A stretch of DNA of 64,000 bases from Raja brachyura (taxonomy: Eukaryota), in contig OY740784.1 in NCBI GenBank assembly GCA_963514005.1, positions 25,296,001-25,360,000 of the forward strand, in the 5' to 3' direction. The translations under genes and the position numbers were made by a program. The notes beneath the pieces are model-generated. The model was not told the origin of the DNA. It was given only the letters and a program-made list of their open reading frames with translations, and did not search any database. Below, in pieces: positions 1 through 39,135 of this stretch. The first letter of the stretch is position 1. The number at the start of each line of letters is the position of its first letter.

Positions 1-1063
1 CCTGCACCGCCATTCAATGTGATCATGGCTGATCATCCAACTCAGTATCCCGTACCTGCCTTCTCTCCATACCCCCTGATCCCTTTAGCCACAAGTGCCA
101 CATCTAACGCCCTCTTAAATATAGCCAATGAACTGGCCTCAACTACCTTCTGTGGCAGAGAATTCCAGAGACTCACCACTCTCTGTGTAAAGAATGTTTT
201 CCTCATTTCGGTCCTAAAGGAATTCCCCCTTATCCTTAGACTGTGACCCCTTGTTCTGGACTCCCCCAACATCGGGAACAATCTTCCAGCATCTAGCTTG
301 TCCAACCCCTTAAGAATTTTGTAGGTTTCTATAAGATCCCCCCTCAATCTTCTAAATTCCATCGAGTACAAACCGAGTCTATCCAATCTTTCCTCATATG
401 AAAGTCCTGACATCCCAGGAATCAGTCTGGTGAATCTTCTCTGTACCCCCTCTATGGCAAGGATGTCTTTCCTCAGATTTGGAGACCAAAACTGTACGCA
501 GTACTCCAGGTGTGGCCTCACCAAAACCCTGTACAACTGCAGTAGAACCTCCCTGCTCCTATACTCAAATCCTTTCGCTATGAATGCTAACATACCATTT
601 GCTTTCTTCACTGCCTGCTGCACCTGCATGCCTACTTTCAATGACTGGTGTACCATGACACCCAGGTCTCGTTGCATCTCCCCCTTACCTAATCTGCCAC
701 CATTCAGATAATAGTCTACCCTCATGTTTTTGCCACCAAAGTGGATAACCTCACATTTATCCACATTGTACTGCATCTGCCATGCATCTGCCCATTCACT
801 CAGCCTATCCAAATCACCCTGCAGCCTCCAAGCATCCTCCTCACACCTAACTATACCCCCCAGCTTGGTATCATCTGCAAATTTGGAGATGTTGCATTGA
901 ATTCCCTCGTCCAAATCATTAATATATATTGTGAATAGCTGGGGTCCCAGCACTGAGCCTTGCGGCACCCCACTAGTCACTGCCTGCCATTCTGAAAAGG
1001 ACCCGTTTACTCCTACCCTTTGCCTCCTGTCTGCTAGCCAGTTCTCTATCAATTCTCTATCAA
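1..1063 (-). mobile_element. CR1-clade (HER1-like) LINE, 5'-truncated; C-terminal part of RT ORF2 still open (42..1052)
   Basis: GVPQGSVLGP and KFADDTKL RT motifs, CR1-type RPHLEYCVQFWSP and RTRGH; 3' UTR runs off the left edge. Confidence 0.95.
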
Positions 1064-2531
1064 TATCAGTTCACTATATCTTCTTGCACATAGTAACCAA
1101 GTCTTTAGCTATTACATGGCACCTATAATCAAACATACACTGTTGTTAACTTCATGGTGCTTTGATTCAATTTTGAGGTTGGTGAAGGTAATCCGTATCA
1201 ATAATAACAATTACATTCTCACTGCAAGTTTAAGCATTGTGGTTTAATCACTGCATGTTTATCCAGAAACAAGCAACAGGTAATTACCAGTAAATAGTAT
1301 GGCCAGTGTAAATTACAGACAAAAATAAAACACTGCTACAAATTTTATCTTTTAAAGAACATAGCATGAATTTCACTAGTCTGATGTCTCCAACCTATGC
1401 ACATTGATAATGGCTTGGTAATGTGTGGCGTTATCACCATTTAAAAAAAGAAACATCTGTGACCACTGTAAAAACCTACACAGATTATATAAACTTCATG
1501 CAACTGAATCTAAGGATCGTGCTAAACGAGCCATTCAAACTATAAACAGATTTATCAAAACAGTTACACATCAAGTACATTGTAAGCAGTTTTGCCTACG
1601 TTTCAATCTTAAAGGAGCACCATATTCATGGAAATTACACAAAACGTTCTAGTAATCCATCTGTCACATGGTAATGTAAATCTCATTGAAAGTGCATCAT
1701 TATGACCGTTGCACTCAACGCTGTCTAGGTAAAAGTGACCGCTGTTCCTCCTAATTTTTTTTCAAAAAAAGACATATGAGCACAAATTTTTCACAAAGAT
1801 TATACACCTTTAAGATTCTGTGGGAAATAATGAGAAAAAGTTATAACTTGAAACAAAATACAATACATTGGCCTCATATTGTTCCTTCATTAAAGAAGAA
1901 TTTCAATACAGGCCAAGGTAAAAACAAAAAGACACTAAGACAAAAAATAAGGACAATGCTAAATATTTTTAGAAGTGAAACAATTGATAAGTGAGAGCAA
2001 GTTACAGCATGAAGAACACAGAATAAGATTTCCTTTACACATTACAACTGAAATCACCAGCTGGAAACTCACTGACCAATGCTCTGCACTGTTAATACAT
2101 CCACATTTGTAAATGTTTTGTGAAGAATTTTGAAAGTGCAATATATTTACTGAGGGGAAAACACTGACAGTACTCAACATCTGTCATGTAAAAGATGGAT
2201 GTTGAGAGCTTTTTGGAATGGACTGGTCACAGACCCTGGTAAAAATAAAGTACAGGCTAAAGCAAGTACATACTGAACAGCCAATGGAGGTTTCAAGAAT
2301 GTTTCACAAGACTTTAGGACATGTCTATTCCAGACACAACACTGAATATTTAAATACATAGTTATACAGATGACTGCAAAATATTACATTGCTAAGAAGA
2401 ATATCAGCTTGTTCCCTCATTCCAGATGATATTAATAATGTGAGTGATATTCTGACAATCGCCAGGCTGCTATGAAATATACCTCCTATGGAAATGGAAT
2501 GTGCTTTGCTTTGACCTCAACAAATAAAACT

Positions 2532-2570: not shown

Positions 2571-3472
2571 TCAATGGGCTGTGAGTTGATGAAAGGATTG
2601 AGGGGGCAAGGCACTGCCTTCTGTACTGAAGCTCTCTTGTCCTCCTTCGCCACTGTTCTCAGGCTCTTGCTGAAGCTGGACGTTTGCCAATTTCTCGTTG
2701 TCGCTGGTTTCGCGAGGAACAGTGAAAGCTCTGGAATAAAGGTGGCTCATAGAGCCAACAGGAAGATATGTTTTGCCTTCAAATATGTCCTCCTTCTCCT
2801 CCACTTCATTCTGGATGCTGGGTGACGGAAATGTGGCACTCTGCTGAAGAAAGTAGCTATTTCTGGTCTCCATTTCCACCAGTCCATTTCCACTGAAACC
2901 GTGGTCAAATTCCAACTCCCCCCATTCCTTTGTCAACTGTTTTGTCCGATTATGTTGCCACCATTCAATGTTTGATAATTGCTTATCGGGTATATGATTG
3001 TAGTTTATCGCTTCCTCCTTTGGACGCTCGCCACTTGCAATGGTTGTGCTCATGTTTGTACCATCAGAGTCAGCAAGTACAACAGGTTGTGCTTCTGTTG
3101 CCTCCCATACAGTCATGCCACTAGATTCATCCTCGGGCTCAGTAGAGAACACATTTCCAAAAATAGGCAATGGAGTTGGTGCCATGTCCAGTGCTGTGGT
3201 GTCAATGCTCAAATCAAGAGTCCCGCCCTTATTTAGCGCAATGGCCTCAGAAGTTTTAATGTGTCCAGAAAAAGTCTTAAGCAGTGCAAACATTCTATCT
3301 ACATCCTTCCAGTAATTAGTCCAGTCACCAAGGCTAAGGCTATAATTATGCCTGTGTTCAAACAAGCTTTCATCCACACTGTACAAATTTTCAAGTTCTC
3401 CCCAGTTGATATTTTCCGTTAAGTTTGGCAGTTTAAGTGGATTAACCTTCCCATCCATCCCATAGCTGTCCC
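2571..3472 (-). CDS. SULF1: SULF1 terminal exon, alternative frame: 300-aa acidic C-terminal extension reached by skipping the 34-nt exon
   Basis: Same acceptor (3472). The phase-1 G of exon 14679-14802 plus GG GAC AGC TAT gives GDSYGMDGKVNP..., open for 902 nt to TGA at 2571 (ORF track 2571..3542). Actual use of this isoform is inferred. Confidence 0.75.
3442..3472 (-). CDS. SULF1: SULF1 terminal exon, canonical frame (GQLWDGWEG*)
   Basis: tgcag|G GGA CAG CTA TGG GAT GGA TGG GAA GGT TAA; characteristic Sulf1 C-terminus; the summed exon lengths keep frame. Confidence 0.96.
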
Positions 3473-10777: not shown

Positions 10778-12191
10778 CCACCGTCACTTCTGAGTGGTTC
10801 TTCGCCAATTATAAGGAAATAATAAATATTTTGCTGCTGGTACATTTTCAGGAAAAATAAGTGTTACACAACCACAACATTGATTTGGGGATGCACATGA
10901 ATTAAAAACTCAAGAGTTAAGTTGCGACACCACCTTAACAGTGATCGCTTCCCTCCTGGTTACTAAAGAATAGCTTTTGTTCACTCACAAGGACTTGAAG
11001 CTCAGCCTCCTCAACTTTGGCCACTTTCGATGCTGCTGTAGCCTGGCAACCAGGTAGCAGGAATAAAAAGAGGCAAAGATCAAACAATTAGATTCCAAGA
11101 TTAAGGTTATCTTGGTACATTATTCATTTTCTGAGTCTCTACATAAATATATTTATATCTGTTAGATTATCTCAAATAAAATATACCTATTGTAGTGTAA
11201 TTCTTTGCAGTATATGATAGGATAACTTAATTAATTTATTAAATGTTTTTTATTTCCACCTATTTACACTCACTTCCCCCAAGTGTCATTGAGTACAAGG
11301 ACCACATTACTGGAATTTCTAGTTGTCTATTTAATAGTTTCCCCCCTTATTTTCTCCCCCTTTAGGAGTCCTCTGTGCAACACACAATTTACGAGCTTAG
11401 AGTGCAGGTTAGTTAAGCCATTTCTGATTCCATACTCTGGAAACTGGGATAGGAACATGTGACATGTGGTTGAGAAGTCAATGGAAACGCTTCCTCTCTT
11501 CCCCGAGCAGCACCCATCAAGTATTGTGTAGGTACTGCCTATAGATATTGGGTCAAATTCTACGCCGCGAGTGGAAGTTTGTGCTTTTATTGGTTAATGC
11601 AATTTAGTAAATTCATATTAGAGTTTAGAAGCTATCTGCCAGATAGAAAGTAAATGTGAAGCTTACCAGTTGCAAAGTGATAAAAGGTTGGAAAAGTAAC
11701 TTACAAAAGAACCACAAGTCTAATTCATACTCAAAACTTATCTTCGACATTGGTAAATTTGAACAATAATAATATTCCAATCGGGACCAGGGACAATTGC
11801 GTGGTTTCAAACTGAATGGTTTTTAAATGAGTGTACAGACCACAGATTTGGATTTGCTTTGAACATAATTTGTGCCTAAAGTTTGTTAATATTCTCTAGG
11901 CGATTTGGTTCCAATATAGGGTACAACATATGAACACGGTTCAGTTTTCAAGCAATCATGGGACTGTGTTAGCGTGCAAGTGTAAAATATGTGTGCGTAC
12001 ATTTATATGGACGTATGTGTTTGAAAGATATGGAGGGAATGGTAGGAATCAGTCCATTTCTCTTCACTCTGAAATTGCTTTCACCTTCGAGGAGCAACAA
12101 CTGAGCTGGGATCACAACGGAAGCAAATTATTAGGACTCTTGTGGATCCCAAAGAGTAGAGTTGAATAAAAACAGATGGTCTGAAATAAGA

Positions 12192-12451
12192 ATTAGTTGT
12201 TATTTGTTAAAGAATGAGCTATCATGCATCAAAGAATGCTGGATGGAACATACAATAAAAGTACACGAAGCTTCAATGGGCCAGCTCATGCAATTAGACG
12301 GAATGAAAGTTGTGGAAGAGAATAAAAAGTATGGATACCTGTGCTGATCAAAGCTTCCTCCATCTTTATTTCCTGATTAGGAAAATACAAGAGTAATTTA
12401 TGTTAATGATTTTAGAACAGTAATATTATTCACATTGTATCTGCCCATGCA
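12192..12451 (-). promoter_or_regulatory. Intronic splicing-regulatory cluster around the 34-nt exon (3x UGCAUG RBFOX, 1x ACUAAU QKI)
   Basis: catgca on + at 12223-12228, 12287-12292 and 12446-12451; attagt at 12192-12197. Confidence 0.65.
12339..12372 (-). CDS. SULF1: SULF1 34-nt penultimate exon; frame-shifting, probable cassette exon
   Basis: atcag|GA AAT AAA GAT GGA GGA AGC TTT GAT CAG CAC AG|gtatcc = GNKDGGSFDQHR, matching the Sulf1-type GNKDGGSYDLHR. Confidence 0.93.
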
Positions 12452-12951
12452 TTACCTGAGGAAAAATGGAATGTGGTTAAAATAGAAAGGAAAAGTAACC
12501 TTTGACATGAGAAATAACCAAGAGAACATGGCTTAGACATCCAAACTAAAAGGGAGAACACCTTGTTTCATTGTAAACTAGATCAGTTTGGAAAGTAAGC
12601 TGCTGTATATACTTTATCAGCAGTGAAATCATATATATATACACAAGATTATGTTGGTAAATTTTCACTTTGATTGAATGTGTAAAAGGGCTGATAGAAA
12701 AACAGCAGCTTGTATCGATCACTCCTGACCATATTCCCAGTGGCTTCAATAAAAATAAACATTGGGAAAGCTATAAAATGGGCGAGCAGTTTTCCATTAC
12801 CAATCTTGCGTGATCAAATGTCAAAGTTACCTCCTTGACATCACTTGTGTGCCTCATTTTAACCTATTTCAACAATAGGGCGAGATTGATGCTACCAAAT
12901 AACTGTATATATTATTGCACTGAATTGATTTTGCACGGTTTCACTTTCTTA

Positions 12952-14678: not shown

Positions 14679-14802
14679 CTGTTTCTGCTCCCTTGGTCCG
14701 TGGAGTGCATTGCTTGTGTCCTTGGCAACTTCTTAATTCCATTAGCTGTATGTGCAACTGATTAAGTACTTCCCGATCAACCATGTGTATTGTATTTGTT
14801 AG
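14679..14802 (-). CDS. SULF1: SULF1 coding exon (124 nt), ends in phase 1
   Basis: ttcag|CTA ACA AAT...ACA G|gtaacc; [41 protein letters not shown]. Confidence 0.96.
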
Positions 14803-22429: not shown

Positions 22430-22972
22430 AAATATAACCATATAACAATTATATAACATTATATAAAATATAACCATATAACCATATAACCATATAACAA
22501 TTATAACAGCACGGAAACAGGCCTTCTTGGCCCTTCCAGTCCGTGCCGACCATTTATTTCCCCTTAGTCCCATCTACCTGCACTCAGACCATACCCCTCC
22601 ATTCCCTTCCATATACCTATCCACTTTACTTTTAAATGTTAAAATCGATCCTGCCTCCACCACTTCTGCTGGAAGATCATTCCACACAGCCACCACTCTC
22701 TGAGTAAAGAAGTTCCCCCTCATGTTACCCCTAAACTTCTGTCCCTAAATTCTCATGTCATGCCCTCTTGTTTGAACCTTCCCTACCCTCAATGGGAAAA
22801 GCTTATCCATGTCAACTCTGTCTATCCCTTTCATCATTTTAAAGACCTCAATCAAGTCCCCCCTTAACCTTCTGCGCTCCAAAGAATAAAGACCTAACTT
22901 GTTCAACCTTTCTCTGTAACTTAGTTGCTGGAACCCAGGCAACATTCTAGTAAATCTCCTCTGTACCCTCTC
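22430..22972 (-). mobile_element. CR1 3' fragment with (TTATATGG)n tail
   Basis: ORF 22745..22945 SYRERLNKLGLYSLERRRLRGDLIEVFK; (ccatataa)n repeats at 22430-22505. Confidence 0.9.
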
Positions 22973-22979
22973 TTGGCCC

Positions 22980-23997
22980 TTGTTGTGAGTGGGGGAATGG
23001 GGAGAGAGGGGAGCGTTTCCCCCTGGTCCTCACCTTTCACCCCACCAGCCAGCGCATACAACAAATAGTCCTCCACCAGTTTCGCCACCTCCAACGTGAC
23101 CCCTCCACTCGCCACATCTTCCCATCTTCCCCCATCTGCCTTCCGCAAAGACCGCTCCCTCCGCAACTCCCTTGTCAATTCTTCCCTTCCCTCCCGCTCC
23201 ACCCCTTCCCCGGGCACTTTCCCTTGCAACCGCAAGAGATGCTACACTTGTCCCTTCACCTCCCCCATCCACTCCTTTCAGGGACCCAAGCAGTCATTCC
23301 AAGTCCGACAGAGGTTCACCTGCACCTCCTCCAACCTCATCTACTGCATGTGTTGCTCCAGATGCCAGCTGATCTACATCGGTGAGACCAAGCGGAGGCT
23401 GGGCGATCATTTCGCCGAACACCTCCGCTCGGTCCGCAATAACCAACCCGACCTCCCGGTGGCTCAGCACTTCAACTCCCCCTCCCATTCAGTATCCGAC
23501 CTCTCGGTCCTGGGCCTCCTCCACGGCCAAAGTGAGCAACACCGCAAGTTGGAGGAACAGCACCTCATATTCCGCTTGGGGAGTCTGCATCCTCTGGGCT
23601 TAAACATTGAATTTTCTCAATTCTGTTAACCCAAACTGCCCCCTCCCCCTCCCCACCTCTCCCTCAGCACTCGGGCCCTGACATTCCTTCTCCATCTCCC
23701 CCCCCCCCCCCCCCACACCCAAGTCGCACTAGCTTCTCATTTTCACACTACAAACAGCTTACAATGGCCTCTTTCCTTTATCATCAATACTTTTTTGCAT
23801 ATCTTTCATTCATTGTTCTTTATCTCTCCATATCACTGTCTATATCTCTCGTTTCCCTGATCCCTGCCCAGTCTGAAGAAGGGTCTCGACCCGAAACGTT
23901 GCCTATCTCCTTCGCTCCTTAGATGCTGCTGCACCCGCTGAGTTTCTCCAGCTTTTTGTGTAACCCTCGATTCTCCAGCATCTGCAGTTCCTTCTTT
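22980..23997 (+). mobile_element. Penelope-like retroelement, 5'-truncated: GIY-YIG endonuclease end plus 3' terminus with hammerhead motif
   Basis: ORF 23096..23629 has CxxxxCxxC, NLIYCMCCSRCQLIYIGETKRRL (GIY-YIG), HLRSV, VAQHFN and PLGLN, the PLE endonuclease signature. Confidence 0.92.
23869..23904 (+). ncRNA. Minimal type-I hammerhead ribozyme motif in the PLE terminus
   Basis: CTGAAGA (23873-23879), a, GGGTC tc GACCC, GAAA (23893-23896), cgtt. Confidence 0.7.
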
Positions 23998-37294: not shown

Positions 37295-39135
37295 CATACA
37301 GCATGGAAACAGGCCCTTCGGCCTAACTTGGCCATGCAAACCAAGATGCCCCTTTTAAGCTGGTCTCATTAGCCTGCATTTGGCCTACTTTCCTCTAAAA
37401 CTTTCCTAGCCATGTACTTGTAAAAATGTCTGTCAAATGCTGTTATAGTATCTGCCTCAAATGCCTCCTCTGGTAGCTCGTCCCAAATATTGATGTGGAT
37501 AGAGAACTGGCTGGCAAACAGGAAGCAAAGAGTAGGAGTAAACGGGTCCTTTTCACAATGGCAGGCAGTGGCAAGTGGGGTACCGCAAGGTTCAGTGCTG
37601 GGACCCCAGCTATTTGCAATATACATTAATGATCTGGATGAGGGAATTGAAGGCAATATCTCCAAGTTTGCAGATGACACTAAGCTGGGGGGCAGTGTTA
37701 GCTGTGAGGGGGATGCTAGGAGACTGCAAGGTGACTTGGATAGGCTGGGTGAGTGGGCAAATGTTTGGCAGATGCAGTATAATGTGGATAAATGTGAGGT
37801 TATCCACTTTAGTGGCAAAAACAGGAAAGCAGACTATTATCTAAATGGTGGCCGATTAGGAAAAGGGGAGATGCAGCGCGACCTGGGTGTCATGGTGCAC
37901 CAGTCATTGAAAGTAGGCATGCAGGTGCAGCAGGCAGTGAAGAAAGCGAATGGTATGTTAGCTTTCATAGCAAAAGGATTTGAGTATAGGAGCAGGGAGG
38001 TTCTACTTCAGTTGTATAGGGTCTTGGTGAGACCACACCTGGAGTATTGCGTACAGTTCTGGTCTCCAAATCTGAGGAAGGACATTATTGCCATAGAGGG
38101 AGTGCAGAGAAGGTTCACCAGACTGATTCCTGGGATGTCAGGACTGTCTTACAAAGAAAGACTGGATAGACTCGGTTTATACTCTCTAGAATTTAGGAGA
38201 TTGAGAGGGGATCTTATAGAAACCTACAAAATTCTTAAGGGGTTGGACAGGCGAGATGCAGGAAGATTGTTCCCGATGTTGGGGAGGTCCAGGACAAGGG
38301 GTCACAGCTTAAGGATAAGGGGGAAATCCTTTAGGACTGAGATGAGAAGGACTTTTTTCACACAGAGAGTGGTGGGTCTCTGGAACCCTCTGCCACAGAG
38401 GGTAGTTGAGGCAGTGGCTATATTTAAGAGGGGTTAGATGTGGCCCTTGTGGCTAAGGGGATCAGAGGGTATGGAGAGAAGGCAGGTACGGGATACTGAG
38501 TTGGATGATCAGCCATGATCATATTGAATGGCAGTGCAGGCTCGAAGGGCCGAATGGCCTACTCCTGCACCTAATTTCTATGTTTCTATATCCTCCACCC
38601 TCTGAGTGAAAAAGTTGCCTGTCAGGTTCCTATTAAATATTACCCCTCACACCTTGAACCTATGTCCTCTCGCAATTGAATCCCCTATCTTGGAAAAAAG
38701 ACTGTGCATTTATCCTGTCTATTCCCTTAATGATTTTATACACCTCTATAGGATCACCCCTCAGCCTCCTGCACTCCAAGGAGCAAAGTCCAAGCGTGCT
38801 AACATCTCCCAAAAGCTCAGCCCCTCTAATCTTGGCAACATCCTTGTTAGTCTTCTCTGCACTCTTTCCAGCTTAATGGTGCCCTTCTACAGCAGGGTAA
38901 GCAAACCTGAACACAGTACTCCAAACAAGGCCTCACCAATGTCTTGTATAACTGTGACACAATGTCCCAACATCTATACTCAAAACCCTGACCGATGAAG
39001 TCCAATGTACAAAAAGCCTATCTGCCTGTGAAGCATTTTCAGGGAACTATCCATCTGCACCCCTGGATCTCTTGCTCTACAACACTCTCCAGCACTCAAA
39101 CATTCACCATGAAGCTCCTGCCATGGTTTGTCTTC
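37295..39135 (-). mobile_element. Older CR1 3' fragment split by the young LINE (37295-37487 and 38590-39135)
   Basis: ...ggtagctcgtcccaaa | atcctccaccctctgagtgaaaaagttgcc is contiguous in other copies (e.g. 5545-5600, 44690-44740). Confidence 0.85.
37488..38589 (+). mobile_element. Young CR1-clade LINE, 5'-truncated, with (TTTCTATG) tail
   Basis: ORF 37490..38437 is nearly identical in protein to 42..1052; a small deletion near 38410 frameshifts the last codons. Confidence 0.95.

What the first reader, a model, noticed from the sequence alone, without database searches (positions are those of the whole stretch)
12192..12451. RBFOX/QKI motif cluster suggests the tail switch is tissue-regulated
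Seen: UGCAUG at intron positions about +47 and +111 downstream of the 34-nt exon and about -79 upstream, an ACUAAU at about +142, and a weak donor (AG|gtatcc). Three copies of one hexamer within about 230 nt is well above chance. Established: RBFOX bound downstream generally promotes inclusion and bound upstream promotes skipping; QKI binds ACUAAY. Inference: RBFOX-rich tissues make short Sulf1 and other tissues make the long-tail form. This is independent support for the dual-frame model.
Basis: partly seen in the sequence, partly recalled or inferred. Interest (0 to 1): 0.7.

Follow-up and report, generated by a model that had tools for sequence, protein, structure and literature searches.

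The report
Ancient RBFOX switch for SULF1 tail
Short splicing-signal motifs sit at exactly the same places around a tiny exon of the growth-factor-tuning enzyme SULF1 in a skate and in a bird-like animal, and they likely let the RBFOX splicing proteins choose between the ordinary short enzyme and a longer, little-studied form with an acidic tail.

Summary
The window holds skate SULF1 (minus strand). UGCAUG lies at -79, +47 and +111 around the 34-nt exon 12372-12339, and ACUAAU at +142. Inclusion gives the standard short C-terminus. Skipping (with a second, 54-nt exon also absent) opens a 300-residue acidic tail, annotated from sharks to primates. The cluster alone is modest evidence, but conservation is strong. 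A bird-like locus has UGCAUG at exactly -79 and +47 and GCAUG at +115, inside flanks about 66% identical, against 43% for a control flank. The paralogous SULF2 exon has no GCAUG nearby. The mouse exon is already catalogued in supplementary tables: it is a predicted Rbfox-activated target whose inclusion rises from 0.42 (E14.5) to 0.95 in cortex, and its skip product is listed for mouse and human. So the RBFOX reading and its direction hold. The QKI site is not positionally conserved. A clean RBFOX-tissue versus other-tissue split is unproven: four skate runs show only inclusion, and a long-tail peptide was found in mouse brain. New here: skate-to-amniote motif conservation and an invariant acidic Ser-Gly site in the tail, a candidate glycosaminoglycan attachment site.

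The parts
14679..14802 (-). SULF1 upstream exon C (124 nt, ends in phase 1)
   Evidence: joined to the 34-nt exon in contigs of 4 runs
12456..12475 (-). Polypyrimidine tract and AG at -83: conserved candidate alternative acceptor (in skate followed directly by GT); if used, stop after 8 codons, 91 nt before the next junction (predicted NMD target)
   Evidence: aligned AG at -92 in L007; use not observed
12446..12451 (-). UGCAUG at -79 (RBFOX element), same offset in L007
12373..12412 (-). Acceptor region -40..-1, 88% identical to L007
12339..12372 (-). 34-nt frameshifting cassette exon D
   Evidence: mouse and human orthologue 34 nt
12333..12341 (-). Donor CAG|GTATCC, identical in L007
12287..12292 (-). 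UGCAUG at +47 (RBFOX element) inside an 11-nt block identical in L007
   Evidence: gorilla read-through isoform P0068 has Cys-Met at this codon position
12223..12228 (-). UGCAUG at +111 (GCAUG core kept at +115 in L007)
12192..12197 (-). ACUAAU at +142 (QKI-like hexamer; not positionally conserved)
10989..11042 (-). Second alternative exon D2 (54 nt, frame-preserving, basic; paralogous to a SULF2 exon); no GCAUG within 300 nt
2571..3472 (-). Last exon E: short frame stops at 3444-3442; skip frame runs 300 codons to the stop at 2573-2571
   Evidence: RefSeq long isoforms
2889..2894 (-). Ser-Gly codons of the acidic FSGNG motif in the long tail (candidate glycosaminoglycan attachment site)

Best explanation
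The 34-nt exon is a frameshifting cassette whose conserved downstream UGCAUG elements likely bind RBFOX proteins and promote its inclusion, giving short SULF1, while RBFOX-poor cells such as neural progenitors would skip it more often and make the long acidic-tailed form. Shown: the motifs, their conservation, the reading-frame arithmetic, the exon's inclusion in skate transcript contigs, and three RBFOX-family loci in this genome. Taken from mouse data: alternative splicing, the developmental rise in inclusion, and a model-predicted Rbfox-activated label. Inferred: direct binding, skipping in the skate itself, and a graded rather than on/off tissue pattern with inclusion as the majority form. 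QKI is not needed to explain the data.
For: L007 has UGCAUG at -79 and +47 exactly and GCAUG at +115. Flank identity to L007 is 66% (z 11) for -120..-1 and 66% (z 10) for +1..+140, falling to 41-47% beyond -120 and 40-53% beyond +140; the donor flank of upstream exon C is 43% (z -0.9). UGCAUG is among only 7 of 90 (upstream) and 13 of 139 (downstream) perfectly conserved hexamers. Gorilla and mouse intron-derived peptides place Cys-Met (TGY ATG) at +47 and, by my hand count, +110. The skate SULF2 paralogous 34-nt exon has no GCAUG within 300 nt. PMC5989265 Datasets S9 and S5: the mouse exon (34 nt, introns 2305 and 8018 nt, matching the coordinates) is module M2+, core member, under selection, Rbfox=1 at FDR<=0.01, with Nova, Mbnl and Ptbp all 0. 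PSI is 0.42, 0.51, 0.74, 0.79, 0.81, 0.77, 0.86, 0.79, 0.95 from E14.5 to 21 months. Sign checked on Gabrg2. RBFOX2 is low in progenitors and rises in neurons (abstract of 10.1101/2024.09.20.614071). Fox-1_C domain matches lie on 3 contigs of G000.
Against: The Rbfox label is a Bayesian prediction that itself uses motif and conservation scores, so it is not independent of the motif argument; I saw no per-exon knockdown delta-PSI or CLIP peak. An Rbfox2 neural-crest knockout paper and a QKI knockout paper had no Sulf1 in the small supplements held. The second mouse series starts at PSI 0.86 (fc_e11; fc_e13 blank), so embryonic skipping is weaker there. Bulk cortex PSI can shift with cell composition. 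No skip junction was seen in skate data (0 of 4 runs with cover; contigs drop minor variants; only 15 of 390 joints were displayed). The upstream UGCAUG is as well conserved as the downstream one and by the usual rule would repress. A long-tail peptide was found in brain lysate.
Confidence: 0.8

Rival explanations
1. The motifs are conserved because RBFOX mainly polices splice-site choice: the upstream UGCAUG masks a competing acceptor 4 nt away (a predicted poison extension), and the downstream ones prop up a non-consensus donor. The exon would then be near-constitutive in skate, with little tissue switching.
For: Polypyrimidine-AG at -83 (skate) and -92 (L007), each followed in frame by a stop at the aligned position. 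Inclusion in 4 of 4 skate runs with cover.
Against: Mouse PSI moves from 0.42 to 0.95. The skip-frame ORF is kept from skate to primates. None of the 69 isoform C-termini printed uses this acceptor, although an NMD target would not be annotated. Compatible with the best explanation as an add-on.
Confidence: 0.1
2. QKI or another factor, not RBFOX, is the main regulator, or QKI is an essential co-regulator.
For: ACUAAU at +142 with UAAY half-sites at +130 and +137 in skate. L007 has ACUAAU at +69 and ACUAAC at -36. The gorilla read-through peptide is compatible with an ACUAAY near +67. So an ACUAAY may be kept with positional turnover.
Against: Not conserved at the aligned place; a single hexamer is at chance level (P=0.084); the SULF2 exon also has an ACUAAY at +85; no QKI perturbation record found.
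Confidence: 0.07
3. The cluster is chance or reflects an RNA structure (AUGCAU is self-complementary, so upstream and downstream copies could pair).
For: Window-wide chance of some triple is 0.14; the minimum-energy fold pairs the -79 and +111 copies.
Against: Folding z-score 0.01, and the centroid lacks that helix; base-exact conservation; absence at the SULF2 paralogue; mouse data.
Confidence: 0.03

Closest known systems
Mouse Sulf1 cassette CA-240725-159025-161330-161364-169382 (PMC5989265, Datasets S5 and S9; seen: main-text passages, the Sulf1 and control rows, the S5 header)
   Same: Orthologous 34-nt exon; predicted Rbfox-activated; early developmental switch to inclusion; flagged under selection
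   Different: A table row only: the word search terms did not include Sulf1 in the main text, and the rows say nothing on the protein consequence, on non-mammalian conservation or on QKI (not modelled)
Splicing-accessible coding 3'UTRs, frameshifting penultimate exons (PMC7392665; seen: section 5, passages, supplement rows, part 1 of supplement 1)
   Same: Mouse and human SULF1 34-nt exon skip listed with the 272-residue human tail, RNA-seq support, one proteotypic peptide in one mouse brain lysate, RT-PCR primers in Methods
   Different: That class is described as proline-rich, destabilising and poorly conserved; the SULF1 tail is acidic, about 5% proline in human and alignable from skate to primates; 'rbfox' has 0 occurrences in its main text
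SULF2 3' end (skate G000:C22, loci L003-L004)
   Same: Paralogous 34-nt and 54-nt exons and the same short C-terminal frame; a relic of the tail helix (48% over 33 aa, E 1e-4)
   Different: No GCAUG within 300 nt of the 34-nt exon; the skip frame stops after about 25 codons and the relic lies in another frame
HSulf-2 chondroitin/dermatan sulfate chain (PMC10721642; seen: passages)
   Same: A sulfatase carrying a glycosaminoglycan on a Ser-Gly site that lowers its activity
   Different: That site is in the hydrophilic domain; HSulf-1 is described there as GAG-lacking; the SULF1 candidate site exists only in the skip isoform and is untested

Membership tests
RBFOX-activated cassette exon | (U)GCAUG in the proximal downstream intron | tested here: met
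   +47 and +111
RBFOX-activated cassette exon | Motif conserved in orthologous introns | tested here: met
   -79 and +47 exact, GCAUG +115 in L007; one nucleotide-level comparison only; gorilla and mouse by peptide compatibility
RBFOX-activated cassette exon | Exon is alternatively spliced in this species | tested here: inconclusive
   Inclusion in 4 of 4 runs with cover, no skip seen; both forms are RefSeq models in Amblyraja radiata; alternative in mouse and human
RBFOX-activated cassette exon | RBFOX genes present | tested here: met
   PF12414 matches on 3 contigs of G000
RBFOX-activated cassette exon | Direct binding and loss of inclusion on RBFOX depletion | not testable with these tools
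   Only the integrated prediction Rbfox=1 for mouse was seen
QKI-regulated exon | ACUAAY core with a nearby UAAY half-site (consensus recalled) | tested here: met
   +142 with half-sites at +130 and +137; chance level P=0.084
QKI-regulated exon | Positional conservation of the element | tested here: not met
   +69 in L007, not +142
QKI-regulated exon | Response to QKI loss | not testable with these tools
   No SULF1 in 4 supplement files of PMC7782589
Frameshifting penultimate exon with coding 3'UTR | Length not divisible by 3; skipping adds at least 20 new residues past the canonical stop | tested here: met
   34 nt; 300 vs 21 residues after exon C
Frameshifting penultimate exon with coding 3'UTR | Proline-rich, poorly conserved tail (typical trait, not the definition) | tested here: not met
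   Net charge -13 to -34 in 18 of 18 tails, alignable skate to primates; human proline 0.051
Proteoglycan core protein | Ser-Gly next to acidic residues (PMC8418075 passage) | tested here: met
   One Ser-Gly column invariant in 18 of 18 aligned tails; a matching motif in 17 of 37 further hits, many of them fragments
Proteoglycan core protein | Actual glycosaminoglycan chain on that serine | not testable with these tools
   No data found

The most novel reading that the evidence does not exclude
RBFOX toggles SULF1 between a plain secreted sulfatase and a proteoglycan-like form. The skip isoform's roughly 270-300-residue polyanionic tail carries a glycosaminoglycan chain on its invariant acidic Ser-Gly and damps or redirects the basic heparan-sulfate-binding domain. 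A splicing switch as old as jawed vertebrates would then tune Wnt, Shh and FGF signalling between progenitors and differentiated cells. The tail predates the SULF1/SULF2 duplication and has decayed, together with the motifs, in skate SULF2.
Probability: 0.3. Interest if true: 0.75.

Novelty: new member of a known kind. Interest (0 to 1): 0.45.

Why it matters
The Sulf review passages I read give both enzymes as 870-875 residues and mention only a shorter quail splice form (PMC3890690), and HSulf-1 is called GAG-lacking. Yet the long form is about 58% of Sulf1 transcripts in E14.5 mouse cortex in one series. If a conserved RBFOX switch sets its level, an unstudied isoform may do much of SULF1's work in progenitors. 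The claim is cheap to test. The regulatory logic itself (downstream UGCAUG activates a small exon) is textbook, and the mouse exon is already in supplementary tables, which caps the surprise.

Tried and rejected
Literature: 10 full-text searches. No paper held all of Sulf1, alternative splicing and rbfox. The 10 papers with SULF1 and RBFOX2 were unrelated by title and abstract start. Most subscription papers are not searched, and supplements of preprints are closed, so an Rbfox knockout table naming Sulf1 may exist unseen. Two key Rbfox papers (CLIP network 2014, triple knockout 2018) were not held. Supplements of PMC6663295 (3 files) and PMC7782589 (4 files) had no Sulf1; files 14 and 15 of PMC5989265 were not searched. 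PMC13247117 has no 'sulf' in its main text. PMC9037703 gave nothing specific. Sequencing runs: no RNA holder listed on record. Of 8 runs laid, X14, X7 and X6 had no cover on exons C or D, and X21 (raw reads of a more distant organism) had too few reads; none bears a tissue label, so no tissue PSI. RNA structure was rejected (z 0.01). A recursive-splice-site reading of the AG|GT at 12456/12455 was set aside because L007 has no GT after the aligned AG. Pfam finds no family in the tail; no transmembrane stretch (best 19-residue hydropathy 0.47-1.09 in 4 tails). Earlier scan notes: none. No structure or complex prediction was run.

Full report
Locus. The window is G000:C4:25296001-25360000. It holds 15 exons from the 3' part of SULF1 on the minus strand. 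The skip-frame tail is 98% identical to Amblyraja radiata Sulf-1 isoform X2, so the genome is a closely related skate.

Observation. TGCATG lies at -79, +47 and +111 and ACTAAT at +142 relative to the 34-nt exon 12372-12339, and the donor is CAG|GTATCC. Locally the triple is unlikely: 9 of 10,000 shuffles of the +-250 region reach 3, and the other 14 exons have 2 copies in 28 flanks. Scanned blind, it is less striking: probability 0.14 of some triple in 64 kb, with a second triple mid-intron at 15942-15771. The single ACUAAY is at chance level (P=0.084). The donor is the only one of 15 lacking all of +4A, +5G and +6T, but it is median by U1 pairing energy.

Anatomy. After exon C (14802-14679), inclusion of exon D gives 21 more residues and skipping gives 300. 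RefSeq isoform tails revealed a second alternative exon, D2 (54 nt, 11042-10989). D plus D2 gives 39 residues, and D2 without D gives 10 residues with a stop 22 nt before the last junction. So the long tail needs both exons absent. The script classed 69 C-termini as 31 short, 25 long and 13 other, and set aside 6 without the anchor. Five of the 'other' class are long-type variants missed by the exact pattern. None uses the -83 acceptor. Long forms are annotated in rays, sharks, coelacanth, birds and mammals.

One scan of metagenome contigs returned one locus, L007. Its exon C matches bird SULF1 best (30 of 32 residues). It has UGCAUG at exactly -79 and +47, GCAUG at +115, the same donor, and ACUAAU at +69 rather than +142. 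Identity to skate is 66% over -120..-1 (z 11) and over +1..+140 (z 10). It drops to 41-47% further upstream and 40-53% further downstream, and the donor flank of exon C gives 43% (z -0.9). Such islands of intronic conservation mark regulated exons (established knowledge, recalled), and the skate-amniote split is roughly 450 million years old (recalled). A gorilla read-through isoform (P0068) has Cys-Met at the +47 codons. A mouse alternative last exon starting at +96 encodes Trp-Cys-Met, which by hand count puts TGY-ATG at +110. Both are compatible with UGCAUG but do not prove it. The skate SULF2 paralogous 34-nt exon has no GCAUG within 300 nt, and its skip frame closes after about 25 codons.

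Expression in skates. Eight runs were laid. Contigs of X15, X1, X2 and X11 join exon C to exon D. In X1 the last exon lies 33 letters from exon C in one record, so D is in and D2 out. X14, X7 and X6 had no cover, and X21 had too few reads. No skip joint appeared among the rows shown (15 of 390, 3 of 3). Contigs drop minor variants and carry no tissue labels, so this shows only that inclusion is the main form in those samples.

Published data. PMC7392665 lists the mouse and human 34-nt exon skip with RNA-seq support, and one proteotypic long-tail peptide in one of two mouse brain lysates and none of three targeted runs. PMC5989265 lists the same mouse exon (intron lengths match) as an early-switch M2+ core exon under selection, with Rbfox=1 at FDR<=0.01 and Nova, Mbnl and Ptbp 0. 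The value 1 means activation, as checked on Gabrg2 exon 9. PSI rises 0.42, 0.51, 0.74, 0.79, 0.81, 0.77, 0.86, 0.79, 0.95 from E14.5 to 21 months; a second series runs from 0.86 to 0.96-0.99. The label comes from a Bayesian model that combines knockdowns, CLIP, motif and conservation scores, so it overlaps with the motif argument. I could not see the exon's own knockdown values.

Mechanism. RBFOX bound at +47 and +111 likely stabilises recognition of a short exon with a non-consensus donor. Low RBFOX, as in neural progenitors (abstract), would let the exon drop out and shift the last exon into the long frame. The genome has three RBFOX-type loci. The upstream UGCAUG follows by 4 nt a polypyrimidine-AG that is conserved in L007 and is followed in frame by a stop at the aligned place. 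It may therefore mask a competing poison acceptor rather than repress the exon; this is inference only. QKI is unsupported: the site is at chance level, its position is not kept, and SULF2 has such a hexamer too.

What the switch may do. In 18 of 18 aligned tails the net charge is -13 to -34, against about +25 for the hydrophilic domain (approximate bounds), there is no transmembrane stretch, and one Ser-Gly column in an acidic context is invariant. A full HMMER search gave 38 hits; 17 of the 37 new ones show the motif in an acidic context, 2 more match the pattern at unrelated places, and many of the rest are fragments. Ser-Gly near acidic residues is the glycosaminoglycan attachment signature (PMC8418075), and HSulf-2's chain lowers its activity while HSulf-1 is called GAG-lacking (PMC10721642). 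The tail may thus be a glycosylated, inhibitory or targeting module; this is untested. Skate SULF2 keeps an out-of-frame relic of the tail's first helix (E 1e-4), and a trout SULF2-like predicted protein (P0110) keeps it in frame, so the tail likely predates the duplication.

Verdict. The mouse event is already catalogued. The deep conservation and the candidate proteoglycan tail were not found in 10 searches of the held library. Interest 0.45.

Noticed in passing
window 11042-10989 (-): Second alternative exon D2 (54 nt, basic peptide), paralogous to the SULF2 exon at L003:4680-4733; present in RefSeq isoforms of sharks and rays; no RBFOX motif within 300 nt.
   Followed up: partly
window 12475-12430 (-); L007:891-948: Conserved polypyrimidine-AG 83-92 nt upstream of the exon, with an in-frame stop at the aligned position; candidate poison acceptor. 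In skate the AG is followed directly by GT.
   Followed up: partly
window 2894-2889 (-): Invariant acidic Ser-Gly (FSGNG) in the long tail; candidate glycosaminoglycan attachment site.
   Followed up: partly
L004:95-193 (G000:C22): Skate SULF2 3' region keeps an out-of-frame relic of the SULF1 tail helix; a trout SULF2-like prediction (P0110) has it in frame, and salmonid P0112 matches the same helix.
   Followed up: partly
window 15942-15771 (-): Second cluster of TGCATG copies in mid-intron between exons 16888-16746 and 14802-14679; no exon assigned.
   Followed up: no
window 3472 (-), last-exon acceptor: Several shark, ray and coelacanth isoforms carry one extra residue at this junction, suggesting a tandem 3-nt acceptor shift in those species; this skate has no second AG there.
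   Followed up: no
window 45-1070 (-), 22748-23029 (-), 37424-38434 (+): Long open frames resembling LINE reverse-transcriptase fragments (resemblance recalled); many short interspersed repeats swamp read mapping in the introns.
   Followed up: no
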